51,754 nucleotides of DNA from Escherichia virus TH30. The stretch lies in the sequence record MT446404.1; one strand, written 5' to 3'. Below the pieces are notes generated by a model, which worked only from the letters and a program-made list of their open reading frames with translations, made no database searches and had not been told where the DNA came from. The position numbers were made by a program, and so were the translations under genes. Shown piece after piece: positions 428-21,123 of the stretch (positions are counted from its first letter, which is position 1; each line of letters starts with the position of its first letter).

Positions 428-454
428 ACGCTCACTAACACTGGAGGATTCAAT

Positions 455-763
455 ATGTCTGGATTGCAAGCGTGGGATGCAAACGGGAACATCGTCGCAG
501 ACCTGGGAGATTACACGATTAAATTCATAGGACGATATTCGATGAGCATCGCCGACAACGCCTCGACCGCCTCAATATCCGTTGGCGGGATTGATGGCAA
601 TAACTCATTCGCCAATGTCATGAAAACAAATGGAACCACTGACGGGTCGATACGAACTGACATCGTGGCGAAGACTAAAAGCGGAGGTGTGGATCTGCTA
701 TACCTGCCAACTGGTAACTCCGGTGGCGTCACCGCAGATATTGAAGTTTACAAATTCATGTAA
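455..763 (+). CDS. hypothetical protein (102 aa)
   Basis: ORF with GGAG-type RBS just upstream; no recognisable motif. Confidence 0.4.
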   Translation: MSGLQAWDANGNIVADLGDYTIKFIGRYSMSIADNASTASISVGGIDGNNSFANVMKTNGTTDGSIRTDIVAKTKSGGVDLLYLPTGNSGGVTADIEVYKFM

Positions 764-772
764 GGGGGAATC

Positions 773-1423: not shown

Positions 1424-1497
1424 CAGCACGAATAGCTAAAACAAATCCCAAGGAAGGGTATAGAATCACCTCATCCTAAACAAATGAGCAAACACCA

Positions 1498-1836
1498 ATG
1501 AAAAAATTAATCATCGTAGCGGCCCTCTTAGCGTCATTCAGTGCGAACGCTTTTAATGCAAATATCGGCTACTCAATTCCGGCAGCGCGCATCTCCCTGA
1601 CTGGTGAGGTGAGTTTCACTATTGACTGTGCCACGAAAGAAATTGAGATTCACGACTCAACTAACGAAATGTTCACTCGCCACATCAAAGCGAACAAAAG
1701 CGTGATGTGCTACAAGGACGATAATGTGTATAACGTAACATTCAAATATGAGCGCGGTAGCAAGGTAATCACTAACCTGCTCGCCACTCAGCCGAATAGA
1801 TTCCTTCCAAAACCTAACACCGTAGAAATGATGTAA
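1498..1836 (+). CDS. secreted protein with N-terminal signal peptide (112 aa)
   Basis: N-terminus MKKLIIVAALLASFSANA is a classic Sec signal with AXA cleavage site; no lipobox Cys. Confidence 0.5.
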   Translation: MKKLIIVAALLASFSANAFNANIGYSIPAARISLTGEVSFTIDCATKEIEIHDSTNEMFTRHIKANKSVMCYKDDNVYNVTFKYERGSKVITNLLATQPNRFLPKPNTVEMM

Positions 1837-1866
1837 AAAAAGGGGCCAATCGGCCCCTTAATTATT
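1834..1866. terminator. bidirectional rho-independent terminator between convergent genes
   Basis: A-run, GGGGCC-aatc-GGCCCC hairpin, T-rich tail. Confidence 0.7.
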
Positions 1867-4800: not shown

Positions 4801-5197
4801 TCGTGGTAACGCCTCGAGGCATCAGGATTTTTACGCGGACTGCCGATAGCTGCTTGTTAGTTACCGAGATCACGTAAGGCGTCGTTGTTTTCAATTCACG
4901 ACCTACAGTGAACTCAGCAGCCGTGTCGTTGAAGCCTTTGATGTAATCCTGCGTCTGCGTACCAGGTCGGAACTCAGCCGTTACGCCTTCATAGTTAACC
5001 TCACCGGAAGGTGCAATTACAGGAACATCATTAAGATACAAGTCCTTTAATGAGAAATTAGCATCAACCTCGCCATCACTAACAGCGAGCAAAACCTTAA
5101 TCTTGTTGATTGAGATCAGGTTATCTTCCATCTCCTGTGGGGTATGCGGCTTGCTGCTTCCACCCTTTCGGCCCGTCACTACACTATTTTTAATCAT
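1865..5197 (-). CDS. central tail fibre / host-specificity protein (lambda J-like, 1110 aa)
   Basis: Size and position downstream of I/K/L/M homologues; fibronectin-III-like internal segment. Confidence 0.75.
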   Translation of the reverse strand: MIKNSVVTGRKGGSSKPHTPQEMEDNLISINKIKVLLAVSDGEVDANFSLKDLYLNDVPVIAPSGEVNYEGVTAEFRPGTQTQDYIKGFNDTAAEFTVGRELKTTTPYVISVTNKQLSAVRVKILMPRGVTTKENGDMVGVVVKWAVDMAVDGGSYQEVLLDTIDGKTISGYDKTKRIDLPAFNEQVLLRVRRVTSDSTDARVVDTINIQSYAEVVDAKFRYPLTGLVYVEFNSELFPQIPSISTKKKWKIINVPSNYNPELREYSGTWDGSFKKAWSNNPAWVLYDLITNQRYGLDQRELGIAVDKWSLYDAGQYCDQKVPDGHGGTEPRYLCDVVIQSQVEAYNLVRDICSIFRGMSFWNGESLSIVIDRPREASYIFTNDNVVDGSFAYTFASEKSMYTTCNVTFDDEQNMYSQDIEGVFDLNASLRFGHNPTSITAIGCTRRSEANRRGRWVLKTNLRSTTVSFATGLEGMIPMIGDVVAIADNFWSSNLTLSLSGRVMEVSGLQVFTHFKVDARAGDFIIVNKADGNPVRRTISKVSADGKTIELNVGFGFDVQPNTVFAIDRTDIALQQYVVTAITKGDGDDEFTYSITAVEYDPNKYDEIDYGVNIDDRPTSIVDPDNMQPPKNISVSSYSRIVQGLSVETMVIGWDKVQYASKYDVQWRKDNGNWMNVPRTANSEVEVEGIYAGNYHVRVRSISGGDNASPWSGVVSAGLTGKVGLPSKPINMTASTDEVFGIRVKWGFPADSGDTAYIELQQVKDNGDGTYNPDNASLLTLIPYPQHEYWHSTLPAGMVIWYRARLIDRIGNQSPWTDFVRGMTSDDVSAIIGEIKVDIEQSEGYKYLLENANKSASSIQNQAESILENALANDADVKIMRKESGNRKAQFTQAVNLITDETQARVEAMTELKAQIDNEVVASITEVKTALATETDARTSADTALSSRIGNNEAALTQKLESYASAGSVGVQYGVKLGLKYNGMEYGAGMSMELVGSGGNVRSQMIFDAGRFAISNGISSGSGQWSLPFVVENNQVFMQSAFIQDGSITNAKIGNRIQSNNYVQGSQGWAIDKNGNFELNGNAGTGRMVISNNIIQVYDASGRLRVRMGLW

Positions 5198-5242
5198 GAT
5201 GTTTAGCCTTTCGTGCGATTTATCGAGGTTTCATTATACAGG

Positions 5243-5270
5243 CACAAAAAAACCCGCGCAAGGCGGGTTT
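5243..5270 (-). terminator. rho-independent terminator (minus strand) between I-like and J-like genes
   Basis: CCCGC-gcaag-GCGGG hairpin followed by U-run on the minus-strand transcript. Confidence 0.55.
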
Positions 5271-5273
5271 AAC

Positions 5274-5867
5274 TTAGGCCATATCTTCCGCAACGCTGTA
5301 GGCTGAGAACGTTGCTCCGCCTACCGTTCGATACCCATACGGCACAGGGATCGGGTTTCCTGCTGCGGTCGTGTTTACTGCGCCGCCGAAGGCGTATGAT
5401 GGTTTGTTCTTACTGCTTTGAACCTCCATCTTTGATCCGCCCTGCTGCGGTGAAATCATCTGCATTACGCCACCGAGAACCATTGCGCCGCCCATCATGA
5501 ACGCTGACGTTGCGAACGTACCCATAAGAGCCAGTGATGCGCCGCCAGTGTAGAATGCCGCCACCATCATCACCGCGCCGACAACAATCTGGAACATCCC
5601 TCCATTTTTTGAGCCTGTTGGAATAGGTATGATCCGAACTTCTTTCGCGCAACTGAATGCCGATTCATCATGTGGCCCAACGTTCTTACCATCAACGAAC
5701 ACAGCGAAGTGCATACGAGAGCCGATCTCGCTTTGCATGAACTCCTTGAATCCCGCAACCTGAGATGATAGCGCTCGGATAGCCTCGGGGTATGAGTCAA
5801 CATCATATTTGTGGAAAACGCCGAACCTGCGGCCCAGCGATCCTGACAGCTTGATTGTTTTTAACAT
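5274..5867 (-). CDS. tail assembly protein (lambda I-like, 197 aa)
   Basis: Gly/Ala-rich hydrophobic C-terminal half; synteny K-I-J. Confidence 0.55.
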   Translation of the reverse strand: MLKTIKLSGSLGRRFGVFHKYDVDSYPEAIRALSSQVAGFKEFMQSEIGSRMHFAVFVDGKNVGPHDESAFSCAKEVRIIPIPTGSKNGGMFQIVVGAVMMVAAFYTGGASLALMGTFATSAFMMGGAMVLGGVMQMISPQQGGSKMEVQSSKNKPSYAFGGAVNTTAAGNPIPVPYGYRTVGGATFSAYSVAEDMA

Positions 5868-6586
5868 TTATCTAACTCCTTATGCCTGCATATCATTACC
5901 GTGTGATCCTGGAACCATCCTGAGTAAATATCCGTCTTTGATAGCTTACCAAATGCGTGATGTAGGAGTTGATTATTGCCAAGGTAAATCCCTGCATGGT
6001 TCCATACATCAGATTGTAATTTCATGATAATCATGTCACCAGGCTCAGGATCCTTTCCGGTTTCAACAAAACCCTCTTTAATGTAGTTGTCCTGGTATAG
6101 ATTCTCACCATACTCAGGTTTCCACCACTCGTAAGGTTTTCTGAAGTCATTCAGGATTACGCCTTGCTCCTTGTGCCATGCCATAACCAGCCCCCAGCAA
6201 TCGAAAGAGCCAAGCGACCAGGGCCGACCAATCAGCGGCATGGCTTCTGGATGAACGATTCTCATGTCACCTTCCGGCAGGCTTACAATCACCCATGGCA
6301 CTTCCATCTCATTCAATACGCACAGGTCATGCGCGCTTGGTAAAGTGGTTGCCCCGTCGCCCGTATGGCTGTGCACGATGGCGATCGTGGTTAGGTCGGC
6401 GTCATCCTCAATGCAAGCGTACTGTACCGAATGAAGCTGAAAACCTTTTTCCGGTTCTGAGTGAACGTTGTCAACGGGCCAGTATTTCTGAACCCGCCCC
6501 TTTTGAGTCACCACGCCGCAACATTCATTGGGGTATACTGATTTCGCATGTTCGAAGATTGCCATCTTAATTTTGCCGTTAATCAT
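5861..6586 (-). CDS. tail assembly protein K-like with JAB/MPN and NlpC/P60-like parts
   Basis: HSHTGDG...SAHD resembles the JAMM HxH...D metal site; Cys-containing N-terminal part; synteny. Confidence 0.65.
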   Translation of the reverse strand: MINGKIKMAIFEHAKSVYPNECCGVVTQKGRVQKYWPVDNVHSEPEKGFQLHSVQYACIEDDADLTTIAIVHSHTGDGATTLPSAHDLCVLNEMEVPWVIVSLPEGDMRIVHPEAMPLIGRPWSLGSFDCWGLVMAWHKEQGVILNDFRKPYEWWKPEYGENLYQDNYIKEGFVETGKDPEPGDMIIMKLQSDVWNHAGIYLGNNQLLHHAFGKLSKTDIYSGWFQDHTVMICRHKELDKC

Positions 6587-7329
6587 TGGTTTTTCCTGTC
6601 AAGTGATGCGACCGCGCAGCCGCCGAAATCTAATTCATTTTTGTCGCCAAATCGTAATTTGCAGGCAGTTACCGTTCCTGCGCATACGTCCTGTGATGGA
6701 TCAGTTACTGGATTGTTGTCTTTGTCAAACATCCGACTTCCATTATAACCACACCCATTTCCGCTACGATACCATCCACGCTGCGCCCAAAAACAAACGC
6801 TCTGAGTGACTCGCGGTGGAATCATGATTCCGTCCATGTCGTATGGTGAGGTAAGGTCAAATCGCGCAACATTCTGATCCACGAAGTTAGGTCGCTCAAC
6901 GTAGTAAACGTATTTCCTGAAGTCACCAGGGGAAACGTCGCCGTTGCTGCCGAGCATTTCTCGTGATGTTATCCAGATGGTCACCTTGGCCTGCATCATG
7001 CCGTTGTAGGACCGAATAAGTGCCGATACTCGACTATCAAGGTTAGATAAGGTTAATTGTGGCTTTCCAGCCTTTCCGTTACCGTTTAGGTCAATTCCTG
7101 ATATGCCGAAAGGACGAGCGCCATATTCATTTCCCTGAAAGGTGATCGTTTTTGGCTGAAGGCTTCCGCCTGGCTGAGTTGCTGCGAGAATCTCCTCCGG
7201 CGTAAACTGGATGTTCTCGTTGTGGAATCGGTAGACCTGCGCGCCGAATTTCGTTCCGTCAACGTCAATTAGCGTCATGATCTCACCAGGGAACAGCCCC
7301 TGCAATACGTTTTCAAACTTAGGCGTCAT
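6583..7329 (-). CDS. minor tail protein (lambda L-like, 248 aa)
   Basis: Position between M-like and K-like genes; C-terminal Cys cluster. Confidence 0.6.
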   Translation of the reverse strand: MTPKFENVLQGLFPGEIMTLIDVDGTKFGAQVYRFHNENIQFTPEEILAATQPGGSLQPKTITFQGNEYGARPFGISGIDLNGNGKAGKPQLTLSNLDSRVSALIRSYNGMMQAKVTIWITSREMLGSNGDVSPGDFRKYVYYVERPNFVDQNVARFDLTSPYDMDGIMIPPRVTQSVCFWAQRGWYRSGNGCGYNGSRMFDKDNNPVTDPSQDVCAGTVTACKLRFGDKNELDFGGCAVASLDRKNQ

Positions 7330-7340
7330 GGTATTTCCTC

Positions 7341-7372
7341 CAATAAAAAAGCCCCCGTTAGGAGGCTTTATT
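7341..7372 (-). terminator. hairpin plus U-run between M-like and L-like genes
   Basis: GCCCCC-gtta-GGAGGC imperfect stem flanked by A/T runs. Confidence 0.4.
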
Positions 7373-7720
7373 CTACACTGCTGTGAATGCTTCTACAATG
7401 GTGCATTTTACTACGAGAAGTCCGCGACCGATTGGCTGAGTATTCAGCGTATCCGGCTTCAATAAGAATACGCCAATATTGTCCTCCGGCGGAGTGAAGG
7501 CAAAGGCTTTCAGTCGGTGAGATCGCAAAAATTCGCGTACTTCCTTCCAGTCTTTTCCAACGTAGCTGATTGCGTACTCTCTTCGCTCGGTGTTATAGCC
7601 AGACGATGCAACCTGACGGAACCCGTTTCCAAACTGCACCTGTCTGTCATTGTTGGTGACTGTCATTACACCGCCACCATCCTGAACCTGCACGCACCAC
7701 TTGAACACGTCTAGGGCCAT
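7373..7720 (-). CDS. minor tail protein (lambda M-like, 115 aa)
   Basis: Size and position immediately downstream of the tape measure gene. Confidence 0.55.
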   Translation of the reverse strand: MALDVFKWCVQVQDGGGVMTVTNNDRQVQFGNGFRQVASSGYNTERREYAISYVGKDWKEVREFLRSHRLKAFAFTPPEDNIGVFLLKPDTLNTQPIGRGLLVVKCTIVEAFTAV

Positions 7721-7723
7721 TTA

Positions 7724-10636
7724 TTACGCTCCTGCTTTTCCGTTGATGTAATTGTAAACTTCGCCACCCTGGGAACATGATTCCTGAATCATTTGCTTGA
7801 AAATCATTTTCACGCCCTGCTCCATGCCCTTCGGATCGCTACCGTTATTGATGCTAACAGGGATACTTCCGATTGTCACGCCGCCAGCCATGATTGCACT
7901 ACCGACGCCACCGCTTGAAGTTCCACCAACCACGCCGCCATTCGCATAACCTCGCATCATTCGATAAAGGTTATCGACGCCAATTCGCTTGGTAGCTTCC
8001 TTGGTCATGACAAACTCACCTTTATGAACCGTGCCCGCTGGCTCATACTTACCGCCATCTCCGGTATAGCCGCCAGTGGCGAACCAACCTGAGTTGGCGA
8101 AGGAGAACCCCTTGCCGCTGCCGCCGCCCATCATGCCTGACAGTGAGTTAAAGATTACCATCTGCGTGATCATCTTAATGATCTGGCTGATAATGCTCTT
8201 TGCAAAGTCAGCAAAGTTAGCCTGGCCCGTCATCAGGAACTCGGTCATCATGTCTGTCAAACCGTTAAGGGCGTTACTTGCAATATTTTCTACGTTTCCG
8301 TACATATCCATAGCACTTTCGCCGTAGTCCGCAAATGCTTTCTGCGCCCCAGCAAGCCAGTCGCCTCGTTTCTCATCCTCATTGGCGTAATACTCGTTCT
8401 GCTTGTCAATCATTTTCTTGAGAGCTTCATCATCCTGACCGCCTCCCTTAGCCATGTACTCCGCTCGGATCTTCTCAAGCTGAATCTGGCGCTCTGCCTC
8501 AATAGTACCCATTGCGCGCGTTGCGTTAAGGCTTTTACTCGCTGCGTCAATCTGCATGATGAACTTCATTGAGTCGTCATTCAGTTTGTTGATCTGCTCC
8601 TGCTTAACAATTTGATCGCCAAGCTCCGCTTTCTCCTTCGCTAACGAAAGCACCTTTTGCTGACTGGCGAGCAATGCCTTTTCCTCGTTGGTCAGTTTAC
8701 GCTTGCTTTGCGCGTCCTGTAGGATTGAGATTTGAGCCTCAGTAGCCCACAGCGCCCGACGCTGGCTTGAGATCTTGTCGTTAATAGACTTATGATCTTC
8801 CAAAACTTTAAGCTGCGCCTTGAGAACATAAAGTTCTTTATCAAGCTGCTCGGTCGCACCTTTTGTGATGGCTCCCTTCGTGCTCTTAGTTTTCTTTCTG
8901 TTCTGCTCTTCAATGGCTTTCGCTTCCTTTTCTACAGCCTCCTTTGTCTCCTTGCTGTATTGCTTCTCAAGATCGCGTCGGCCCTTAAGTGCATTGATGT
9001 AACCCATCTCGCCCTTTTCTACTCGCGCGTTAATCACGTCAAGATCTTTTGCAAGGCTATCGTAGGTGTCCTTGGAGTTCTTAACGATAGTTTGCTGCTC
9101 GTTGAGAATATCCTTACCGAAATCACTCATACCAGGAAGGCTTTGCGTTGCCTTGATTGCCGATGCAATAAAGTTAGAAATGTATTCGTCACCCTTGGCG
9201 AGAATCATTTTCACCTGAATCACCGTACCGCTAACCACATCAATGATGAGGTTTAGAGCGCCGAGTGTATGATCGCCAACCCAACCCCAGGCGTCGGATG
9301 ACCATTTCTTAATGTCAGTCCACATTTTCTCAAGCGGCGTTGCTGTGCCTGCGATCTTGCTCATGCGTTCTTCCATAGTGTCAGCAAACAGCTTGGTCGC
9401 CGCCGTCACGGCTTCTGTTTCACCCTTGGCTTTAACAATCCCGTTGATATAGGTCAGCTGGCCTTTCTCAAGGAAGTTGTATTGCTCGTTCAGTTTAGCC
9501 AGACCTTTAACCGGATTATCTGCAATCTTGTCGAAGTCTTTAATAATATCGCTTGATGCTCTGCCCGTTGCGGCTGACCATTCAGCGGTGGCGCGGGTAA
9601 TATTCCTGATTTGGTCTTGGGTATATTTCCCACTCTTAGCAAGCTCAGTAGCGATGTCGCGGACGGTTCCGATAGTCGCGTTTCCAGTATCCGCAATCTT
9701 TGTTGCGATCTGGTCAAGGTCTGCCGCGCTCGCTGCTGCAAATCCGCCAGTCTCAATCAAGGCATTTTTCATGTCAGTGATGGATCGGTAGGAGTCGTAA
9801 CCAGATTTAGCCAGGCCAGCCAGTGCAATACCCATAGCACCCATACCAACCGTTACCGGATTAAGGTACGAAAGCAAAACCTTAAACGTGTTACCAATGC
9901 CGCCGAATGAGTCCTTGATCTGTCCGCCCTGCTGGATTGCAACCAACCATACTGGCATTCCGGAAGCAAGGGAAGTAACTACGTCGGTAATCTGCATTGG
10001 AAGAATGCGCAATGCGTTCTTGTACTCGCCAGCGGAAAGACCAGCCGCATTTGTCGCTACAGTCTGCTTATTCATCGCTGCGATTAAAGGAGCGGCCTGA
10101 GCAGACACGCCAAGCTGCGCCGCCTTCAATTCCAAAAGCTCTGTTTTGGTCATTGTCGCGGCGTTAGCTTGTTCTTGCAGTGATTTAAGGAATCTGTCAG
10201 CGTCCTTTGTTGCCGCCTCTTTGGCCTTTGAGTTAGCCATAGCCGCGCGGCCTTCTTCGGTCAGTGCCATCTTGGATCGGTTAAGTGCATTGATCTGAGT
10301 TTCAATCATGCTTGACAGATTGAAGAACTCGGCGTCTGGAACTAGGCCTTTGCTCCAGAGGTTGTCCAGGTCAACGCTCGCCTTCTGCAATTGACGCATT
10401 TTTCCGATTGTAGGATCGATAGCTTTCTCTACGTCGGCAAATTCTTTCTTCTGGCGCTTAACCTCGTTGTTGAACTCTTTCATCTTCTGCTTTGCGACTT
10501 GCTCTGCATCAATGAAATTGTCAAAGCTCTTTCCGGCTGTGTTATTCGCCCTGGATAAGTCATCCAGAGATTTAACCGCCGCGTCAACCTGGGATACGTC
10601 AACCCCAAGCGATAGCCCTGCAAATTTATCTGTCAT
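7724..10636 (-). CDS. tail tape measure protein (970 aa)
   Basis: Very long Ala/Lys/Glu-rich coiled-coil protein with Gly-rich C-terminal region, downstream of G/GT. Confidence 0.85.
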
Positions 10637-10650
10637 AAAACCCCCATACG

Positions 10651-10672
10651 AAAAAAGCGCCCGTAGGCGCTA
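10651..10672. terminator. hairpin with flanking A/T runs between GT chaperone stop and tape measure start
   Basis: GCGCC-cgta-GGCGC stem. Confidence 0.45.
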
Positions 10673-11301
10673 TTATTTTTTGTGCATTTGCTTAAGCGCT
10701 TCCGCTTCCATCACACGCACATCATTTAAGGCCATTTCTTCACAATCTATTTTATAGATTCGAAATAGCATAGGCAAGACATTATAATCAAGCCCGTAAG
10801 CTCCGGCTCCGGCAGACCTCCATTGAGTTTGCATTGCGGTGAATACTTCCCATGACTGGTAAGTTTCCTCGTCAAATTGCAATATCTCCGGATCTTCGTT
10901 GTCGTAGTCCTCACGGGTTAATCCGTATGCCTCAAGTTCTGCGTCGGTGGGCGTTCGCCTGAATAGTAGCTCGACCGCCCGTTTTAGTTTTTTACTCGGT
11001 AGCCAGCCAGTGCTTGAGTGTAGGTTGAGATCAGGCCACCAACAACGGCAGGGTAACTATCAACCAGCTTGTTAATGTTTTCATCATTGAACTCATCCTC
11101 AAGCTCCCACCCGCTAGCCAGGGATTTTACAAACTGAGCACCAGTCTGATTGCTGGCTTCTTTCAGCGTGGCGTTAAGCTCAGATGACGTCAGCGCCTTG
11201 ACAGTGAATGCAAATGTAGCTTCAACTCCGTTAGGCAATACGAATTTAACCGGAAGCTGGAAGTCTGGCAGGCGTTCAGATAGGGTTACTTTAAAGCTCA
11301 T
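10673..11301 (-). CDS. tail assembly chaperone GT-like fusion made by -1 programmed frameshift
   Basis: mRNA reads GUA AAA AAC UAA at the G stop; the -1 frame is open from the slip site through ORF 10673..10882. Confidence 0.5.
10984..11301 (-). CDS. tail assembly chaperone (lambda G-like, 105 aa)
   Basis: Acidic small protein between major tail and tape measure genes; ends on slippery heptamer. Confidence 0.6.
   Translation of the reverse strand: MSFKVTLSERLPDFQLPVKFVLPNGVEATFAFTVKALTSSELNATLKEASNQTGAQFVKSLASGWELEDEFNDENINKLVDSYPAVVGGLISTYTQALAGYRVKN
10987..10993 (-). promoter_or_regulatory. slippery heptamer A_AAA_AAC for -1 ribosomal frameshift
   Basis: Plus-strand gtttttt = AAAAAAC on mRNA, directly before the G stop codon. 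Confidence 0.5.
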
Positions 11302-11345
11302 GGTGTTTTCCTCTTTGTTTGAATTGGTGATATTAAATCATAAAT

Positions 11346-11370
11346 AGAAAAAGGGGGCAATAGCCCCCTT
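11346..11370 (-). terminator. rho-independent terminator downstream of major tail protein gene
   Basis: GGGGGC-aata-GCCCCC hairpin then U-run on minus transcript. Confidence 0.65.
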
Positions 11371-11373
11371 GTA

Positions 11374-12045
11374 TTACGCAGATTCTTTCATGTGCGTGTA
11401 TTTGCCATCAAGTGAGATGGTCAGGATGGTCGTTTCATCTTCGTTCATCACCGTGTTAGGGATGTCATCGAAAGATGGCGTACCAGAGAAGGTGCGAATC
11501 GGATAGCTTGCCTTCGGTACGAACATTCGCATAGCGCGCGTCTTGCCGTCTTCGTCGTAACCAATCAGAAGCTGGGTGATTGGGTTAGAGTAGTCGAAGT
11601 CGAACGTATACGCGATGGACGTCGCAGATTTAAAGGTCGGGATCTGCTTCTCGCGGTCATCTGAAAGGCACTGCTTGGTATAGAACTGCTGCTCACCACC
11701 AGATTTTGCGATGTCGCTAACGCATGGAATTTCAATCCAGCTTTCGATCTTAACCAGTGTGGAAGCGCCGCCAGCGGGGAACTTGTTAAGGTCAGCCGTG
11801 GAAGTGTTCTTGTCACCTTCAAGCGTGATTGATGCGTCCAGGGTTACTTCTTTCACTCGCATTACGCGATTTTTAAATGCAGCCCACACGCTTTCCAGCA
11901 CCAAGACGTAATCGCCCTTCACAATGCCAGTGGTAGATGAAACAGTTGCTACCGGATTCTCCGCGTTGCTTACTGCGGTTGCTTCGATTTCGGTCGCTGA
12001 TCGGGTCTGCTCAATAAAGATTTGGGAACCGTTAGGAAGTGCCAT
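11374..12045 (-). CDS. major tail protein (223 aa)
   Basis: Position upstream of G/GT and followed by a strong terminator. Confidence 0.55.
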   Translation of the reverse strand: MALPNGSQIFIEQTRSATEIEATAVSNAENPVATVSSTTGIVKGDYVLVLESVWAAFKNRVMRVKEVTLDASITLEGDKNTSTADLNKFPAGGASTLVKIESWIEIPCVSDIAKSGGEQQFYTKQCLSDDREKQIPTFKSATSIAYTFDFDYSNPITQLLIGYDEDGKTRAMRMFVPKASYPIRTFSGTPSFDDIPNTVMNEDETTILTISLDGKYTHMKESA

Positions 12046-12058
12046 AGTTAATGCTCCT

Positions 12059-12478
12059 TTATTCGTCGTATTGTACTGTGAAGCGGATTGGAATTAACCA
12101 GCCTCGTTGTGATTTCTGCACGGGCTTTTGGCTCGCGCCTTCAAAAATAAAACCTACAGAAAGGATTTTACCATCTTCGAAGAAATTAGCAATTTCTTTT
12201 GCCAGTTTGCGCGCGTCGTCCATGCCAGTATCAGGAGAGAACACAATGCCAATCTGTACGAGGCCACGAATCCTGATACACTTCCTGCTCAAAGATTTAT
12301 ACGTCTTCTCTGCCGGAATGTAATCGAACTTCAACCACGCTGAGCCATCATCAGGCTCTTTGAATGGAACGTTCTCGCACATGATCGGGAATCGACTTCC
12401 GAACTCACCATGTAGCGCCTTACGCGCCGCGACCGCCAGGTCATAATCGTCATAAACCATTTTTATTCCTTGATTCAA
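12059..12478 (-). CDS. tail completion / terminator-like protein (139 aa)
   Basis: Synteny only. Confidence 0.35.
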   Translation of the reverse strand: MNQGIKMVYDDYDLAVAARKALHGEFGSRFPIMCENVPFKEPDDGSAWLKFDYIPAEKTYKSLSRKCIRIRGLVQIGIVFSPDTGMDDARKLAKEIANFFEDGKILSVGFIFEGASQKPVQKSQRGWLIPIRFTVQYDE

Positions 12479-12893
12479 TAATTGCTTCTGCCATGTAAGA
12501 TCTCAACCGGATAGCAACCAAGCCAAGCACGCCAGCGGGAGCTTGCTGTGAATGTCCGTACTCCAGAGCATTTGCATAGATCAGCATGTTAGAAAAATAG
12601 ATGGTAGTTACCGCCCCGCCACGACCTAACGGCAATGCGTTAGCTGTTCGTATACCTGCTGCGATGGTGGCGTTACCGGATTTGTCATACTCATTCAGCG
12701 CGTACATTGGGATGTGATTATAGGTTATCTGCCAGTTGGCTCTAAAGCGACCTGTATCAACTGGTGAGCCTTTAACTAAATCGGCGTGTACAGCCTTGAC
12801 GAACTCACGAATAACGTCATCAAGGCCAGATTTCACCTGTTTAATCCACTTCTCTATATCGCCCTGGAACTTCCTGACGATATAGTTAGCCAT
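12450..12893 (-). CDS. head-tail joining protein, hypothetical (start probably ATG at 12893, MANYIVRKF)
   Basis: ORF 12450..12992 trimmed to the internal ATG that overlaps the upstream stop. Confidence 0.3.
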   Translation of the reverse strand: MANYIVRKFQGDIEKWIKQVKSGLDDVIREFVKAVHADLVKGSPVDTGRFRANWQITYNHIPMYALNEYDKSGNATIAAGIRTANALPLGRGGAVTTIYFSNMLIYANALEYGHSQQAPAGVLGLVAIRLRSYMAEAIIESRNKNGL

Positions 12894-13266
12894 GCGCCGC
12901 CACCTTACGCAAGATCGGACGGTATGCGATAACGTGAGATTGAGTCGGGTTAACTGGTCGATTATCAACGACGCGCCAGTGCTGGCCCTCAAGGATGATA
13001 ATCATCCCATTCTCAATCGGTGTAACGTTAGAAAAGAACGCACGCTTGTCGCCCAGCTTGATAGATTCGCCATCAATCATGTGATAGCTGATCGCTCGTA
13101 CAGCGCCGAAAACTTTTCCGCGAACCTCCGGTACTTTCACCTCTTCACCGTCAACCATTTGGACGCCGCCACCAGAGATGATGATGTCGAATCCGACCTC
13201 ATCGTTTCCAGAGAAGGCATTAATCCCCTGATCGGTAAGCCTTTGGACTTCGTTATAATCAATCAT
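12886..13266 (-). CDS. head-tail joining protein, hypothetical (start probably 13266, MIDYNEV)
   Basis: ATGA overlap with upstream gene stop; synteny. Confidence 0.3.
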
Positions 13267-13676
13267 CGCACACACCCCCGCGCCCGAATACCAGAGATAA
13301 GGCCGAAGCCGCCGCCTTTCTTCTTGTTGAGAACGTCGTACATTTTGCCCCATGGGGTTTGTGTAATCTGACGCCCATCAGTGTTCTGAGTTACAGATCC
13401 GTAGCCAGTCGAAAATTCACCACTCAGGGAGAATGACGTTACTCGCCGTGAGTAGTTCTCCAGACTTTCATTCTCTCCCTTCATTGCACCATCCAGAAAC
13501 ATCAAGTGCATGGTGTACAGGGCCAGTGCTTTGTAATAGTCAGCACCGAATTTATTCTTGCACACGAATGACTCAGCCAGCATTATCCACGCTAGGAAGG
13601 TGACACTATCAACCTTTCGTAATGCTGGTGCCAACTGGCACATAAACTCGAACGCCTTAATCTGATCTTCATTCAT
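13263..13676 (-). CDS. head-tail connector / head completion protein, hypothetical (137 aa)
   Basis: Synteny only. Confidence 0.3.
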
Positions 13677-13692
13677 AGTAGCTTCCTCATGT

Positions 13693-13720
13693 TAAAAAAA
13701 AGGGACGCATCAGCGCCCCT
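13693..13720 (-). terminator. rho-independent terminator (minus strand)
   Basis: A8 run on plus strand then GGGACGC-atca-GCGCCCC hairpin. Confidence 0.5.
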
Positions 13721-13725
13721 ATAGG

Positions 13726-13998
13726 TTATTTGTATTCCTTGCCAGTTTCAAGATCTTCGATGTCTTTCACTTCTTTTTCCGGCTTAACCTTCGCGGCCTT
13801 TTTGATTTCGGCGATGTATTCACGCGTGCGCTTCGGATCGTCTTCAAATTCAATGTCTTTACGCAAGAACAGGTATTTCAACGCCTGGGATTTGATTTGT
13901 TCCTCTGTAACTTCCAGAGTGTCATCAGGTTTTATATCTTGCTTTTCGATACGAACCAGACAAGCGCCGATGTTCTTAATGACGTTTTTCTTAGCCAT
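13726..13998 (-). CDS. small Lys/Glu-rich protein (90 aa), bracketed by terminators
   Basis: ORF between two terminators next to capsid gene. Confidence 0.4.
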   Translation of the reverse strand: MAKKNVIKNIGACLVRIEKQDIKPDDTLEVTEEQIKSQALKYLFLRKDIEFEDDPKRTREYIAEIKKAAKVKPEKEVKDIEDLETGKEYK

Positions 13999-14074
13999 GT
14001 TTATTTCCTTTTGATTAGTTTAACGAGTGTATTGCCTAGGCGTTCAATGTAATCGTTTTGATGTTGCATGTCAA

Positions 14075-14105
14075 TAAAAAAAGCCCCTGACGTTAATCAG
14101 GAGCT
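14075..14105 (-). terminator. rho-independent terminator downstream of major capsid gene
   Basis: A-run then CCTGA-cgttaa-TCAGG hairpin on plus strand. Confidence 0.55.
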
Positions 14106-14110
14106 TTGTC

Positions 14111-15064
14111 TTACTTACCTACGCCAACCAGCATGATAATCGTCAGTGGACGATATACGATCAGGCCAGTGGTCTTGGAAGTGCACGGGACTTTAAAGTG
14201 CAAATCCTTCGCCTGCATCGGCAGCATATTGAAAGACTCAGGGATCTCGATGCTCATGTTCATCGGGTCTTTCTCATACGCCAGTACAGCTTTCGTGCCT
14301 GCGCCGTCGATGTCTTCCAGTTCGGAGATGGAAGAGATGGTGATGCCACCGTTCTGAGACTTGAACCAGTCCAGATAGCTCATCGTGGTTTCCGGCATAC
14401 GCTTAGCGAGCAATTTACGCTGGGACGGCGGGATGACGATGTCGGTGATCTTGTGCTGACCATTGGTCAGGGTTTCCATCTTCTCGATCAGGTCGGTCAG
14501 TTCTTCGCTTGCTTTCTCTGCGTCAGCCCATGCGCCAGTAGCGGAGGTTACGCGGGTGATGTTCGGATGGTCGAAAACAGAGATGATTTTGTGAGGCTTG
14601 GAGCCTTTGAAAACCAACTGGTTAACCAGAGTTTCGTGACCTTCGCGCGCCAGAGTAGCTTTACGATCCGACAGGCTTGAACCAAGCGCTGCACCAGTTT
14701 TGATCTCGTCGATAGAGATCAGCCACGCGTTACCGAGGCGGTGAACTCGACCAGATTCCAGGCTGTGAGTAGCGTCAACAGTCGGCAGGTCGTCGGTGTA
14801 GTCAGCGATAATCTTCGCCATGGTCACGCCGTCAAACTTGAGATATTCGAACAGGTTAGCGGTCGGGCTAATCTCAGTAGTGACAGGGAACAGAGCCAGC
14901 GCGGAGGTTTCAGGGTAAGCCGCTTCATACTGGCGCTTAAGTAACTGAGTCATCTGTTTGACAGTCCAGATGCCAAGCTGATCAGCTTTGTTGCCACTTA
15001 CGCCAAGCTGGCGCATACCGTTAGTAATCATGTTCTGTTCGAAAGCGTCGAGTTTCATAGTCAT
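14111..15064 (-). CDS. major capsid protein (317 aa)
   Basis: Size, position after scaffold gene, terminator on both sides. Confidence 0.65.
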   Translation of the reverse strand: MTMKLDAFEQNMITNGMRQLGVSGNKADQLGIWTVKQMTQLLKRQYEAAYPETSALALFPVTTEISPTANLFEYLKFDGVTMAKIIADYTDDLPTVDATHSLESGRVHRLGNAWLISIDEIKTGAALGSSLSDRKATLAREGHETLVNQLVFKGSKPHKIISVFDHPNITRVTSATGAWADAEKASEELTDLIEKMETLTNGQHKITDIVIPPSQRKLLAKRMPETTMSYLDWFKSQNGGITISSISELEDIDGAGTKAVLAYEKDPMNMSIEIPESFNMLPMQAKDLHFKVPCTSKTTGLIVYRPLTIIMLVGVGK

Positions 15065-15117
15065 AATTTGTTTTCCTTTGTTTGTTAGAAAGCCGTGATT
15101 AAGTTCACGGCTCTATA

Positions 15118-15134
15118 ATAGCACTTTTTGTTAA
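15118..15134 (+). promoter_or_regulatory. 17-bp conserved motif ATAGCACTTTTTGTTAA, inverted relative to the minus-strand genes here
   Basis: Sits 54 nt upstream of capsid start with an adjacent hairpin. Confidence 0.4.
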
Positions 15135-15181
15135 GCGTGCAACAGCTTTTTATGTTAAGCGCTTATGTCGTTCTCTGGAAA

Positions 15182-15205
15182 TAAAAAAGGAGCCTTTCGG
15201 CTCCC
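15182..15205 (-). terminator. rho-independent terminator (minus strand)
   Basis: GGAGCC-tttc-GGCTCC hairpin preceded by A-run on plus strand. Confidence 0.65.
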
Positions 15206-15221
15206 TATTATGGTTCAGCTA

Positions 15222-15734
15222 TTAAGCTGCCGGACTTGCCGGAAGCTGGAATTGAGCTTGAGTAACCTGGATTTTGATAATGTCGAAGTTCTCATCATCA
15301 GTCTTTAGCCACTCGCCGGTGGTGGTGTAAACAGTGCCAATGCCAGTTGCCGCCACAGTACCCGAAGCGGTCAAGAATACCTGCTTATTGAACTCTTTGT
15401 TCACTTCAGGCAGGTCTTTAGCACACAGTACCCATGCGCGACCGTTGGTCAGTACGTTGATTGCGGAACCTTCTTCATAAACACCCGCCGGAGAGTATGC
15501 GTGAGACATGATTGCTACGCCCACCAGGTTCGGAGTTTCTGCCGAGATGGTGTCAGTTACGACTTTGTGACCATCAACAACCTTTTCAGTAGGGTCGAGG
15601 GCGACTACCACGCCAACCTTAATTTCTTTAGCCGCCGCACAAGCTCCATCAACGTTGTAGAGAGAGGTGTCAGCCAGCAGGCCTGCATATGCTTTTGAAC
15701 GGTTAACCGTATAAGATGCTTTGATTAGTGCCAT
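15222..15734 (-). CDS. head structural / decoration protein (170 aa)
   Basis: Position between scaffold and capsid genes, followed by terminator. Confidence 0.35.
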   Translation of the reverse strand: MALIKASYTVNRSKAYAGLLADTSLYNVDGACAAAKEIKVGVVVALDPTEKVVDGHKVVTDTISAETPNLVGVAIMSHAYSPAGVYEEGSAINVLTNGRAWVLCAKDLPEVNKEFNKQVFLTASGTVAATGIGTVYTTTGEWLKTDDENFDIIKIQVTQAQFQLPASPAA

Positions 15735-15787
15735 GATATTTTTCCTTTTTCACTTAGAGATTAAGCGGCCTTTCGACCGCCATTTTA

Positions 15788-16918
15788 TTACTTACGGAAG
15801 CGCGCCTGAGGATCAGGAATCGCGTCATCATCTTTGTCGCCTTGAGCGCCGTCAGCTTTATCGCCGTGCACTTTGATGCGTTGAGCAGCCATCTTATCAG
15901 AATCGCGAGCGATTTCATAAGACTGATTGATGTATGCGTCGGATTTTTCTTTCGCGTCAATACCGAGAACTTCGTCAATTACTGCCAGTTTGATAGCCTT
16001 CTCATCCAGGCCGTCGCACTTGATACCAAGGCCGGAAGCGAAAGTGAGAACAGCTCCCAGCGCGTCAGCTTTTTCTTTTGCTTCCGCTAGAGCCGCTTCG
16101 ATCTGGGCAGGAATGCCGTCAACCTTTGCTTTCAGCGCATCGCGCTCAGCTTGCAGGCCGTCAACTTTAGCACCAGCTTGCTCTGCTGCGGTTTGCAGCT
16201 TGCCGATGTGGTCAGCTACGTCTTTGGACACTTCCACTTCTGCTGAATCAATTTTAATTTTTACGGTCATGTTACTTTCCTCATTGGTTAATTGAACATG
16301 CTCATCATATTTAATTTCTTCTGAGCCGTCAAGGTTTAATCTGGCAATACCTGCGCGCCCGTGCTTTACCTTGGCAACGTGGTTAGGGACGATGTTCGTT
16401 TGCAGCACGTCAAACTCTTCCCACTCGTCGGTCATGACGGTTCCGTTAGGGAATTGCGCCTCCATCCCTTCCGCATCATCCTTGAAAACATACTCACCAG
16501 TATTGACATTTCCCCACCCTTCGCGGTGGATGTCATTAGTCTTGTAACCAACGGACAATTCTGCGGCGTCGCCACGCTTGGCGGATTCAATGGATTCCTT
16601 GTCGTGAATTACGATCGGACACTTCAAGCCGATTCCATCACGACGACCAGCGCCGGATAGTGAGCCAACAACAATCTTTCGTGCGTTGCTTGTGCTTACT
16701 TCCTGGTGACCTTCTACGATCGGCATACCGCGAAATAGCTCCATGGCCTCAGCCTTGAACACTTCGTTGGCTGGTCGGAACTCACGCTGCATTGTTCCAT
16801 CGGCACGCATATATTCCTGAATGCCGATTCGTGCAATGATTGGCTCATCGTGCATGAATCCGTTCGAGTCAAAGCGTGCTTTCAGTTGCACGCTATCGTA
16901 TCGTTGCTTAGTGGTCAT
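15788..16918 (-). CDS. scaffolding protein (possibly with prohead protease function, 376 aa)
   Basis: Ala/Glu/Lys-rich coiled-coil segment; upstream of capsid gene. Confidence 0.45.
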   Translation of the reverse strand: MTTKQRYDSVQLKARFDSNGFMHDEPIIARIGIQEYMRADGTMQREFRPANEVFKAEAMELFRGMPIVEGHQEVSTSNARKIVVGSLSGAGRRDGIGLKCPIVIHDKESIESAKRGDAAELSVGYKTNDIHREGWGNVNTGEYVFKDDAEGMEAQFPNGTVMTDEWEEFDVLQTNIVPNHVAKVKHGRAGIARLNLDGSEEIKYDEHVQLTNEESNMTVKIKIDSAEVEVSKDVADHIGKLQTAAEQAGAKVDGLQAERDALKAKVDGIPAQIEAALAEAKEKADALGAVLTFASGLGIKCDGLDEKAIKLAVIDEVLGIDAKEKSDAYINQSYEIARDSDKMAAQRIKVHGDKADGAQGDKDDDAIPDPQARFRK

Positions 16919-17397
16919 TTTTTACTCCCGTGATTTTTATGAAATTTATATACAGACTCCGCAACCTTTCTTGCAGAGATTGCGTCATCTTTTCTATCGT
17001 ATCTACCAAGGAATTTCTCCTTTTTGTCCACCCTTATTGAAGCAATCCATTTACTGGTTCTCTTACACCAGCTAACTCCAACAACTCCGCTTTTGTTTGA
17101 CTTGCTCATGGATACGTTTTTGCAATTCTCTTGTCTAGTTACGAGCCTTAGGTTTTCTATCCTGTTATCATCCCTAATATGGTTTATATGGTCAATCTCC
17201 ATTCCTTCAGGTATTTTACCATGGTGCATCTCCCATATTACCCTATGAGCCGGAGTTAGCCTACCCATAATCCTAACGTAAATATATCCATCCTCATCCT
17301 TCCAGCCAGCCACATCGCCAACTTTAACCCTTTTCGATGTCGGATTTTTCCAGATGAGATCTTTCTCTATATGATAAAAATAATCATTGAAATTCAT
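16915..17397 (-). CDS. HNH homing endonuclease (160 aa)
   Basis: EIDHINHIRDDNRIENLRLVTRQEN His-Asn-His motif; wedged between head genes with 4-nt overlaps. Confidence 0.85.
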   Translation of the reverse strand: MNFNDYFYHIEKDLIWKNPTSKRVKVGDVAGWKDEDGYIYVRIMGRLTPAHRVIWEMHHGKIPEGMEIDHINHIRDDNRIENLRLVTRQENCKNVSMSKSNKSGVVGVSWCKRTSKWIASIRVDKKEKFLGRYDRKDDAISARKVAESVYKFHKNHGSKK

Positions 17398-18164
17398 AGT
17401 TGATTCCCACTGCTATCAAATGATGGCACGGCCCAGCATCGGCAGCCGTAAGGCTCACCAGGGAACGGATGGTCACTTGAGATCTCAATACGTTTCCCTT
17501 CCCATTTTACGTGCTGCAATCGCTCGCGTTCATCCAGCTTACCATGCCAGAAGTAGTGAGTTACTCCCGCATCATCCAGGCGCTGGCGCATCAGTACGCT
17601 GTTCCATGTGGACACGATTCCACGTGAGCGATTCACGGTCCAGCCAGTATACACCTTGTAGCGCTGCTTTAAAACTTCATCAATCTGCTGACTGGTTTTA
17701 TTGCGCACGTTTTCGACGCGTAGGTTTTGCGACCAGTCAGAGATGATGTCGTTCGATAGCTTTAGAATGCTTGCCTCAGCCGAGCCTCGCCATTGCGATG
17801 ACTTCTCGCGATACCATGACTCATTAGCATTCGCCCCAAGCGCGCCAAGCAAGATCACAGACTGATTCTTTCCGCCGCCAGCTTTCTTTGCCACGCTGAG
17901 GAATTGCCTTGAGTTGAACTTGTAGATGGTCAAGGCCAGCGCCGGAAGTGTGGCAACAATCGCCGCGATAAGTCCTGCTGCGTATTCCTCAAGCTCACTT
18001 TCTGCATCATTGATTTCTTCGTCCGAAGCGTCAAATCTCATGCCGCCAGTAAGCGATCTGGCTTTCTTTGCCATCTCGCCAGCGAAGGTTGACAATGAGC
18101 GGCTAAGCTGCCGCTCGCTTGCTTCGGGGTAACTCCATTGATTTACAATGCCGTTAACCTTCAT
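17394..18164 (-). CDS. head morphogenesis protein (SPP1 gp7-like, 256 aa)
   Basis: Position immediately downstream of portal. Confidence 0.5.
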   Translation of the reverse strand: MKVNGIVNQWSYPEASERQLSRSLSTFAGEMAKKARSLTGGMRFDASDEEINDAESELEEYAAGLIAAIVATLPALALTIYKFNSRQFLSVAKKAGGGKNQSVILLGALGANANESWYREKSSQWRGSAEASILKLSNDIISDWSQNLRVENVRNKTSQQIDEVLKQRYKVYTGWTVNRSRGIVSTWNSVLMRQRLDDAGVTHYFWHGKLDERERLQHVKWEGKRIEISSDHPFPGEPYGCRCWAVPSFDSSGNQL

Positions 18165-18166
18165 GA

Positions 18167-19429: not shown

Positions 19430-19480
19430 CTGCTTTTCTCCAAATAAAAATGGCTAGGTTGTTAGCCTAGCCATTATACA

Positions 19481-21064: not shown

Positions 21065-21123
21065 AGCAAAAACCCCTAAACATTAATTGTCAGGGGTTAT
21101 TTTATCCACATAGTCAGATTTTA

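What the first reader, a model, noticed from the sequence alone, without database searches (positions are those of the whole stretch)
10673..11301. Canonical -1 programmed frameshift in the tail assembly chaperone
The G-like ORF ends ...GUA AAA AAC UAA; the heptamer A_AAA_AAC is a classical slippery site and the -1 frame stays open for about 100 more codons to 10673, giving a GT-like fusion.
Basis: partly seen in the sequence, partly recalled or inferred. Interest (0 to 1): 0.45.

Follow-up and report, generated by a model that had tools for sequence, protein, structure and literature searches.

The report
Tail chaperone G/GT programmed frameshift
This T1-like E. coli phage very probably makes a short and a long tail-assembly chaperone from one gene by letting a few ribosomes slip back one base at AAAAAAC, an ordinary and already known phage feature.

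Summary
On the minus strand a 105-codon ORF (11301..10984) ends GUA AAA AAC UAA. A_AAA_AAC (10993..10987) is its only in-frame slippery heptamer. The -1 frame runs 104 codons from 10987 to a stop at 10675..10673.

- The ORF is a Pfam tail assembly chaperone (Phage_TAC_4) and the -1 part is DUF1799. They lie between the major tail and tape measure genes.
- 133 related loci (101 unique) were examined. [quoted passage not shown] The second domain is in the -1 frame everywhere except three loci with A5, probably sequencing errors.
- The -1 frame is under purifying selection from the first codon after the slip site, upstream of any start codon. Possible start codons are not conserved.

No Shine-Dalgarno stimulator is present. 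A hairpin 6 nt downstream is common in T1-like relatives but weak here.

The window is a Nouzillyvirus (Drexlerviridae). None of the four annotated records of that genus that I opened has the fusion. A T1-like relative (OzMSK) carries a joined "frameshifted product" CDS at the same GUAAAAAACUAA, and a paper on phage Solomon reports the frameshift. Verdict: real, ordinary, already known; its value is in correcting annotation.

The parts
10984..11301 (-). G-like tail assembly chaperone ORF, 105 aa plus stop UAA at 10986..10984. This is the zero-frame product, about 11.5 kDa.
   Evidence: Pfam PF08748 Phage_TAC_4 E=1.8e-23, 83.5 bits against a cut-off of 21.1. PHROG 569 and 17368. Mass.
11309..11314 (-). 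Shine-Dalgarno AGAGGA, 7 nt upstream of the G start codon.
   Evidence: Read directly from the sequence.
10987..10993 (-). Slippery heptamer A_AAA_AAC in the zero-frame register, directly followed by the stop codon. It is the proposed site of the -1 ribosomal slip.
   Evidence: it is the only in-frame heptamer in the ORF. A canonical heptamer occupies the same position in 84 of 101 unique related sequences.
10673..10987 (-). T-like segment in the -1 frame: 104 codons from CUA at 10987 plus stop UAA at 10675..10673. It is translated only as the C-terminal half of the GT fusion, complement(join(10673..10987,10987..11301)), 209 aa.
   Evidence: Pfam PF08809 DUF1799 E=6e-14. PHROG 680 and 17368. 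Third-codon-position excess in the first 35 codons, with column entropy 18.2/13.8/43.4. No conserved start codon.
10949..10980 (-). Possible weak hairpin 6 nt 3' of the heptamer: GGGCG-G-UCG ... CGA-A-CGCCC. A stimulatory role is unproven.
   Evidence: In the window the fold is -12.9 kcal/mol with z=-0.29. In 48 unique A6C relatives the mean z is -2.4 and the stem starts 7 nt after the heptamer. 72.8% of cells are paired and some changes are compensatory. RNAalifold finds no consensus structure over 67 sequences.
11341..11370 (-). Intrinsic-terminator-like hairpin plus U-run between the major tail gene and G.
   Evidence: The T1 record annotates a terminator at the equivalent place.
10646..10671 (-). 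Intrinsic-terminator-like hairpin plus U-run between the T stop and the tape measure start (ATG 10636).
   Evidence: The T1 record annotates a terminator at the equivalent place.
11374..12045 (-). Major tail protein gene, the upstream neighbour. It is the presumed binding partner of the T domain.
   Evidence: The homologous CDS is annotated as major tail protein in PH1062, ESCO41 and T1. The binding role is inferred from the lambda model (PMC5009743).
7724..10636 (-). Tape measure protein gene, 970 aa, the downstream neighbour. It is the presumed binding partner of the G domain.
   Evidence: The homologous CDS is annotated as tape measure protein. The binding role is inferred from the lambda model.

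Best explanation
This is the tail assembly chaperone cassette of a T1-like siphovirus (Drexlerviridae, genus Nouzillyvirus).

Proposed mechanism:
- Most ribosomes translate the 105-codon G-like ORF and terminate at UAA directly after A_AAA_AAC. This gives an 11.5-kDa chaperone.
- A small fraction slip back one nucleotide on the heptamer. tRNA-Lys moves from AAA to AAA and tRNA-Asn from AAC to AAA.
- Those ribosomes miss the stop and read 104 further codons in the -1 frame. This gives a 209-aa GT fusion with the junction ...RVKN|LKRAVE...

By analogy with lambda gpG/gpGT, the shared G part coats the tape measure protein. The rare T domain (DUF1799) recruits the major tail protein, so that the tube polymerises around the tape measure. 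Neither protein stays in the virion.

Shown here: the sequence anatomy, the family assignments, the conservation of the signal, and purifying selection on the -1 frame from the slip site.

Inferred: that the slip happens, that its efficiency is low, which tRNAs move, and the binding partners.
For: - The anatomy is exact.
- G is Phage_TAC_4 and T is DUF1799. The fusion matches the 213-position PHROG 17368 over positions 4-211, E=1e-82.
- The gene order is major tail, G, T, tape measure.
- 133 related loci (101 unique junctions) were examined. The 7 nt before the G stop are A_AAA_AAC in 58 unique junctions, G_GGA_AAC or G_GGA_AAG in 20 and U_UUA_AAC in 5, that is 83 by name; the summary's 84 is an unreconciled total. 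T is in the -1 frame and is 100-113 codons long. Replacing one canonical heptamer by another at a fixed register is the signature of selection for tandem slippage.
- T-frame protein conservation starts at the first codon after the slip (consensus LKRAVYL.YQKPPTD). Column entropy by codon position is 18.2/13.8/43.4 over the first 35 codons.
- The first possible start codon in that frame wanders from codon -61 to +41 among relatives. In the window it is a UUG at codon 36, inside the conserved domain.
- The GenBank record PQ659294 (OzMSK) has the same GUAAAAAACUAA and annotates a joined 'frameshifted product' CDS.
- PMC8407766 reports the chaperone frameshift in the T1-like phage Solomon.
- PMC5313236 describes AAAAAAC adjacent to the chaperone stop in phage Loki.
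Against: - No protein or ribosome-profiling data exist for this phage. The fusion is predicted, not observed.
- In E. coli, A_AAA_AAC is reported to be far less shifty than A_AAA_AAG (PMC5009743).
- The window has no Shine-Dalgarno-like stimulator. The anti-SD duplex energy is -3.3 kcal/mol, and 9% of both observed and background segments reach -6 kcal/mol.
- The window has only a weak downstream hairpin (z=-0.29). Efficiency may therefore be very low.
- G and T show no detectable sequence similarity to lambda G and T. The functional roles therefore rest on analogy.
Confidence: 0.9

Rival explanations
1. T is a separate gene, translated by independent initiation inside the -1 ORF. Candidates are UUG at 10882 (69 aa) or a later AUG (53 aa), as several GenBank records of relatives annotate it.
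For: Gene callers list such ORFs: 10673..10882, a 53-aa CDS in PH1062, a 69-aa CDS in P817 and gp39 in T1. The window has GGAG 3 nt upstream of the UUG. The OzMSK note says the frameshifted product 'also has independent RBS'.
Against: The position and identity of the first start codon are not conserved; it ranges from codon -61 to +41 relative to the slip site. The GGAG is absent in the 98%-identical ESCO41 version, which reads CCUGAAAUA UUG. The 35 codons upstream of the UUG are conserved as protein with a strong third-position bias. DUF1799 and PHROG 680 matches begin at T residues 22 and 11, upstream of any start. A conserved slippery heptamer at the G stop would have no explanation.
Confidence: 0.03
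2. The fusion arises mainly by transcriptional slippage. RNA polymerase adds one extra A in the A6 run, giving an mRNA in which G and T are in one frame, with the junction ...RVKK|LKRAVE.
For: The slip site is a homopolymer of six A (10993..10988). One added A gives the same reading frame as a -1 ribosomal slip. Three database relatives differ in run length (A5), which shows that the run is error-prone for some polymerase or for the sequencer.
Against: Efficient slippage by bacterial RNA polymerase is described for runs of 9 A or T, and shorter runs need special context (PMC5009743). About a quarter of unique relatives use G_GGA_AAC or U_UUA_AAC, which have no long homopolymer but are perfect tandem-slippage heptamers in the correct register. 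That pattern fits ribosomal slippage, not polymerase slippage.
Confidence: 0.04
3. This is a variant of the ribosomal mechanism, nested within the best explanation. The shift is a single-tRNA P-site slip. Either tRNA-Asn on AAC slips while the A site holds the slowly decoded UAA ('shifty stop'), or tRNA-Lys slips before AAC is decoded. It is not a simultaneous two-tRNA slip.
For: The stop codon abuts the heptamer in 84 of 101 unique relatives. Webervirus (GCA_AAA_GUY_UAA) and the L119 group (GCA_AAG_GUC_UAA) lack a heptamer and can only use a one-tRNA Lys slip, yet keep T in the -1 frame.
Against: Preservation of the full X_XXY_YYZ pattern, through three different heptamers, is not required for a P-site-only slip. 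tRNA-Asn would re-pair on AAA with a third-position mismatch.
Confidence: 0.15
4. The apparent frameshift is an artefact. A sequencing error in the A-run, or a pseudogenising indel, splits what is really one continuous G-T gene.
For: Homopolymer errors do occur in this very run in database records: L053, L090 and L130 have A5.
Against: The same two-frame arrangement with a stop right after the heptamer is found in 130 of 133 independently sequenced relatives, including heptamers that are not homopolymers.
Confidence: 0.01

Closest known systems
Phage lambda gpG / gpGT (Levin, Hendrix & Casjens 1993; Xu, Hendrix & Duda 2004, 2013, 2014; as summarised in PMC5009743)
   Same: Two ORFs lie between the major tail gene and the tape measure gene. 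A slippery heptamer sits at the 3' end of the first ORF. The second ORF is in the -1 frame and is expressed only as a fusion. No elaborate stimulator is present. The expected product ratio is many G to few GT.
   Different: Lambda uses G_GGA_AAG five sense codons before the G stop. Here A_AAA_AAC directly abuts the stop. The protein families differ: lambda has Phage_TAC_2 and Phage_tail_T, the window has Phage_TAC_4 and DUF1799. hhalign finds no similarity.
T1-like (Drexlerviridae) tape measure chaperone frameshift: T1 gp40/gp39; OzMSK PQ659294 joined CDS; Solomon (PMC8407766)
   Same: The G and T parts are homologous (45-60% identity). The sequence GUAAAAAACUAA is identical in OzMSK, and T1 has GCAAAAAACUAA. 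The neighbours and flanking terminators are the same.
   Different: Nothing differs in kind. The window is a different genus (Nouzillyvirus). The four annotated records of that genus that I opened (PH1062, CJ19, ESCO41, P817) do not annotate the fusion. The downstream hairpin common in Tunavirinae and Tempevirinae is degenerate here.
Acinetobacter phage Loki gp12/gp13 (PMC5313236)
   Same: [quoted passage not shown]
   Different: The phage is unrelated and infects a different host. I did not test homology between the proteins.
Haloarchaeal virus HCTV-1/-2/-5 g-t frameshift sites (PMC5009743)
   Same: [quoted passage not shown]
   Different: These are archaeal viruses. The proteins were not compared.
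IS1 insA-insB' -1 frameshift (A6C motif; the motif is from my own knowledge, and the review only states that IS1 uses frameshifting)
   Same: It is a low-efficiency -1 slip on A_AAA_AAC in E. coli, without a strong stimulator, producing a fusion protein.
   Different: It is a transposase, not a phage chaperone, with a different gene context.
E. coli dnaX A_AAA_AAG cassette
   Same: It is a -1 slip on a Lys-codon heptamer in E. coli.
   Different: dnaX has an upstream Shine-Dalgarno stimulator and a strong downstream hairpin, which give about 50% shifting. Here no SD is present, the hairpin is weak, and AAC replaces AAG.

Membership tests
G/GT-type tail assembly chaperone -1 frameshift cassette (Xu, Hendrix & Duda 2004 class) | Two ORFs located between the major tail protein gene and the tape measure protein gene | tested here: met
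   Major tail 12045..11374, G 11301..10984, T 10987..10673, tape measure 10636..7724, all on the minus strand. The neighbours are annotated as such in relatives.
G/GT-type tail assembly chaperone -1 frameshift cassette (Xu, Hendrix & Duda 2004 class) | [quoted passage not shown] | tested here: met
   A_AAA_AAC at 10993..10987, the last two codons of G. It is the only in-frame heptamer.
G/GT-type tail assembly chaperone -1 frameshift cassette (Xu, Hendrix & Duda 2004 class) | Downstream ORF open in the -1 frame across the slip site, with no start site of its own that covers the conserved domain | tested here: met
   The -1 frame is open from 11056 to 10676. The first start codon is UUG at T codon 36, inside the DUF1799 and PHROG 680 match. 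Start positions are not conserved.
G/GT-type tail assembly chaperone -1 frameshift cassette (Xu, Hendrix & Duda 2004 class) | Arrangement conserved among relatives despite sequence divergence | tested here: met
   130 of 133 loci keep T in the -1 frame. 84 of 101 unique junctions have a canonical heptamer at the stop, and 15 have A_AAA or A_AAG. The coding substitution pattern starts at the slip site.
G/GT-type tail assembly chaperone -1 frameshift cassette (Xu, Hendrix & Duda 2004 class) | Fusion protein actually made, at a low ratio to G, and required for tail assembly | not testable with these tools
   This needs a western blot, mass spectrometry or genetics. No proteomic data for this genus were found in the literature searches.
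Pfam PF08748 Phage_TAC_4 | Whole-protein score above the gathering threshold | tested here: met
   83.5 bits against a cut-off of 21.1, covering residues 1-105 and profile positions 1-124 of 124.
Pfam PF08809 DUF1799 | Whole-protein score above the gathering threshold | tested here: met
   52.4 bits against a cut-off of 26, covering T residues 22-101 and profile positions 2-80 of 80.
Lambda gpG (PF06894) / gpT (PF06223) protein families | Detectable sequence homology to lambda G and T | tested here: not met
   Lambda G and T hit PF06894 and PF06223, and the window proteins do not. hhalign probability is below 1% for both. The window cassette works like lambda G/GT but is not a member of those protein families at the sequence level.
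Tail assembly chaperone fold (Pell et al. 2013 spiral structure) | Structural similarity of the G part to solved chaperone structures | tested here: inconclusive
dnaX-type stimulated -1 frameshift | Shine-Dalgarno-like element about 10 nt upstream of the heptamer | tested here: not met
   The anti-SD duplex energy is -3.3 kcal/mol in the window. The fraction of strong sites (-6 kcal/mol or lower) is 0.09 for both observed and background segments across 78 unique relatives.
dnaX-type stimulated -1 frameshift | Stable hairpin or pseudoknot 5-9 nt downstream | tested here: inconclusive
   In the window the fold is -12.9 kcal/mol with z=-0.29. In A6C relatives the mean z is -2.4 with a 6-nt spacer. 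72.8% of cells are paired and some changes are compensatory, but RNAalifold finds no consensus.
Programmed transcriptional slippage | Long homopolymeric run (about 9 A or T), or a shorter run with a nascent-RNA hairpin directly upstream | tested here: not met
   The run is A6. Relatives use G_GGA_AAC and U_UUA_AAC. The run-length criterion is from PMC5009743.

The most novel reading that the evidence does not exclude
In the PF08748/DUF1799 chaperone lineage the zero-frame stop codon is kept immediately 3' of the slip site, and the A-site codon is almost always AAC rather than the AAG that E. coli shifts on best. The most novel reading not excluded is this: the cassette is a 'shifty-stop' device. 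Competition between release factor and a P-site slip of tRNA-Asn, or of tRNA-Lys in Webervirus-type A_AAA_G sites, would set the G:GT ratio, with a variable downstream hairpin as modulator. Tail assembly stoichiometry would then respond to the host's termination capacity.
Probability: 0.12. Interest if true: 0.35.

Novelty: already known. Interest (0 to 1): 0.15.

Why it matters
The main value is for annotation.
- The 209-aa GT fusion, complement(join(10673..10987,10987..11301)), should be annotated.
- Short stand-alone "T" ORFs (69 or 53 aa) should not be called.
- The 315-nt T segment should not be left unannotated, as it is in the genus exemplar ESCO41.
- The name "tail length tape measure protein" that PHROG-based pipelines give to G and T is misleading.

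Biologically the finding adds nothing new in kind. The G/GT frameshift is one of the most conserved features of long-tailed phages and is already annotated in T1-like relatives.

The family-wide survey gives a small resource for recoding specialists. It covers three interchangeable heptamers always abutting the stop, lineages with only A_AAA or A_AAG, and a lineage-specific hairpin.

Tried and rejected
- The search for homologous proteins with the fusion returned only 3 T-only proteins and no full-length fusion. It was uninformative about prior annotation.
- hhalign of the G and T alignments against lambda G and T found no similarity.
- Rfam and tRNA scans of the window found nothing.
- An upstream Shine-Dalgarno stimulator was rejected.
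- A downstream hairpin acting as a conserved stimulator across the family was not supported by RNAalifold on 67 sequences. It is left as 'possible, lineage-specific'.
- Three literature searches (T1-like, Tunavirinae and Drexlerviridae, each with frameshift terms) found no dedicated study.
- Eleven GenBank records of relatives other than OzMSK were inspected for joined CDSs, and none had one.

Full report
**1. What is in the sequence**

All features are on the minus strand.
- An ORF starts with ATG at 11301..11299. An AGAGGA Shine-Dalgarno lies 7 nt upstream. The ORF runs 105 codons and ends ...GCU GGC UAC CGA GUA AAA AAC UAA.
- The heptamer A_AAA_AAC occupies 10993..10987 in the X_XXY_YYZ register of the zero frame. 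The stop codon (10986..10984) follows directly.
- It is the only in-frame slippery heptamer in the ORF.
- The -1 frame has a stop at 11059..11057. From there it is open across the slip site and for 104 sense codons from CUA (10987) to UAA (10675..10673).
- The +1 frame closes after 18 codons.

There is none.

**2. Is it more than chance?**

- A 104-codon open stretch of this base composition appears in 30 of 20,000 shuffles. The analytic probability is about 0.002.
- In-frame heptamers occur at about 0.002 per codon in this window's long ORFs.
- The comparative evidence in section 4 is far stronger than either figure.

**3. What the two parts are**

- The zero-frame protein matches Pfam Phage_TAC_4, a tail assembly chaperone family, over its whole length (E=1.8e-23).
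- The -1 frame segment matches DUF1799 (E=6e-14).
- The fused sequence matches PHROG 17368, a 213-position profile, from position 4 to 211 (E=1e-82). Fusion-length proteins of this family are therefore already in phage databases.
- The neighbours are the major tail protein gene (12045..11374) upstream and a 970-codon tape measure gene (10636..7724) downstream.
- Two terminator-like hairpins bracket the cassette, at 11370..11351 and 10671..10656. The T1 record annotates terminators at the equivalent places.
- The window is a Drexlerviridae phage of the genus Nouzillyvirus. This stretch is 97.8% identical to phage TH21 and 93-97% identical to other members.

**4. Comparative test**

I collected 133 related loci from GenBank phages and IMG/VR. 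They gave 101 unique junction sequences, with G identity ranging from 98% down to about 28%.

The 7 nt immediately before the G stop, counted over unique junctions, are:

| Sequence before the stop | Unique junctions |
|---|---|
| A_AAA_AAC | 58 |
| G_GGA_AAC or G_GGA_AAG | 20 |
| U_UUA_AAC | 5 |
| GCA_AAA_GUY (Webervirus) | 11 |
| GCA_AAG_GUC (L119 group) | 4 |
| A5 instead of A6 | 3 |

- The first three rows are canonical heptamers.
- The Webervirus and L119-group sequences offer only a one-tRNA Lys slip (A_AAA or A_AAG), one codon before the stop.
- The three A5 loci put T in the +1 frame. They are most simply homopolymer sequencing errors.
- In every other locus the T homologue lies in the -1 frame and is 100-113 codons long.

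Exchange of one canonical heptamer for another at a fixed register is what selection for tandem ribosomal slippage predicts. This holds across proteins that have diverged to about 30% identity.

**5. Is the -1 frame translated from the slip site?**

- The T-frame protein is conserved from its first codon. The consensus is LKRAVYL.YQKPPTD.EL.AVGL.
- Over the first 35 codons after the slip, summed column entropy by codon position is 18.2/13.8/43.4 in 59 unique sequences. Mismatches to the window are 666/496/1159. This is the third-position excess expected of coding sequence.
- The first possible start codon in that frame ranges from codon -61 to +41 among relatives. It has no conserved ribosome binding site.
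- In the window the first start is a UUG at codon 36. That is downstream of where the DUF1799 match (residue 22) and the PHROG 680 match (residue 11) begin.

This rules out the short stand-alone "T" ORFs that several GenBank records annotate.

**6. Mechanistic details**

- The canonical tandem slip keeps both zero-frame amino acids. The product is therefore G(1-105) followed by LKRAVE..., with the junction RVKN|LKRAVE, 209 aa and about 23.7 kDa.
- A slip of tRNA-Lys before AAC is decoded, or a transcript with one extra A, would instead give RVKK|LKRAVE.
- My database searches used the Lys version. The one-residue difference does not affect the hits.
- There is no Shine-Dalgarno-like stimulator upstream.
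- In the A6C relatives a hairpin (GGGCGGUUU...AAACCGCCC) starts 7 nt after the heptamer. Their 50-nt downstream segments fold better than shuffles (mean z=-2.4, n=48).
- On 67 aligned sequences 72.8% of cells pair, more than in any slid control, and some changes are compensatory. The window's own UCG/CGA replaces UUU/AAA.
- Against this, the helix is broken in Rtp-like and other lineages, and RNAalifold returns no consensus. The window's version is weak (-12.9 kcal/mol, z=-0.29).
- I therefore regard a stimulator as unproven here. That matches lambda, where low-level shifting needs essentially only the heptamer (PMC5009743).
- The review also states that in E. coli A_AAA_AAC is much less shift-prone than A_AAA_AAG. 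This fits a system that needs much more G than GT.

**7. Rivals**

- Independent initiation of T is contradicted by section 5.
- Transcriptional slippage on A6 is unlikely. Efficient slippage by bacterial RNA polymerase is described for runs of about 9. Many relatives also use non-homopolymeric heptamers.
- A sequencing artefact is excluded by the recurrence in 130 independent genomes.
- A single-tRNA or shifty-stop variant of the ribosomal slip cannot be excluded. It is favoured by the conserved adjacent stop and by the Webervirus-type sites. It is nested within the main explanation.

**8. Comparison with what is known**

- The cassette works like lambda gpG/gpGT, with the same position, logic and frame.
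- Lambda's G_GGA_AAG lies five codons before the stop. Lambda's proteins belong to other Pfam families and show no detectable similarity. This is the same class but not the same protein family.
- Within its own family the feature is already recognised. OzMSK (PQ659294) carries a joined CDS noted as "frameshifted product of tail assembly chaperone", with the identical GUAAAAAACUAA.
- The Loki paper describes AAAAAAC adjacent to the chaperone stop (PMC5313236).
- Most records do not annotate it, including T1 itself and the four annotated Nouzillyvirus records I opened.

**9. Verdict**

It is an ordinary, already known feature. Interest is low and lies mainly in correct annotation.

The fusion protein has not been observed for this phage. 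Section 6 and the next-steps field state which junction peptide would settle the tRNA-level mechanism.

Noticed in passing
window 11370..11341 and 10671..10646 (minus strand): The G/T cassette is bracketed by two intrinsic-terminator-like hairpins with U-runs, one after the major tail gene and one between the T stop and the tape measure start. The T1 record annotates terminators at both equivalent places. This suggests stepwise transcriptional attenuation from major tail to chaperones to tape measure.
   Followed up: partly
L005, L007, L013-L018, L120, L121, L127 (Webervirus) around the G stop; L119, L122-L124: These relatives lack an X_XXY_YYZ heptamer. G ends GCA_AAA_GUY_UAA or GCA_AAG_GUC_UAA, and T is still in the -1 frame. 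Only a one-tRNA Lys slip (A_AAA or A_AAG), one codon before the stop, could make the fusion.
   Followed up: partly
L053 near 1295, L090 near 1290-1343, L130 near 1280-1337 (L130 = Shigella phage 2019SD1, NC_049820): The A-run at the slip site is A5 instead of A6, which puts T in the +1 frame relative to G. L053 also has a second 1-nt deletion just upstream. These are most likely homopolymer sequencing or assembly errors, but this was not verified.
   Followed up: no
GenBank records of relatives: L001 6100..6417 and 6567..6728; L010 (T1) 18872..19189 and 19339..19506; L137 (ESCO41) 305..622: The chaperone G and truncated T ORFs are widely named 'tail length tape measure protein', the label of PHROGs 569, 680 and 17368. 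The Nouzillyvirus exemplar ESCO41 leaves the 347 nt between G and the tape measure gene unannotated. The name and the gene models are misleading.
   Followed up: yes
tblastn hit list (ON843697 Pseudomonas phage Motto, OR786094 Streptococcus phage MBBL140, MG065688 Campylobacter phage A110b): These records encode Drexlerviridae-type G/T proteins at 49-60% identity to the window, but are labelled as phages of Pseudomonas, Streptococcus and Campylobacter. The host assignments look doubtful and may reflect contamination by coliphages.
   Followed up: no
all related loci, the codon before the G stop: The A-site codon of the heptamer is AAC in all but one of the unique heptamer-bearing junctions; the single exception is AAG. 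The stop codon always follows directly. AAC is reported to be the less shift-prone choice in E. coli (PMC5009743). The pattern therefore looks selected, perhaps for low efficiency or for a role of the adjacent stop.
   Followed up: partly
window 1..51754: The window contains no tRNA genes and no Rfam family at gathering threshold. Its length (51.7 kb) and gene order match a whole Nouzillyvirus genome, with the structural module on the minus strand.
   Followed up: partly
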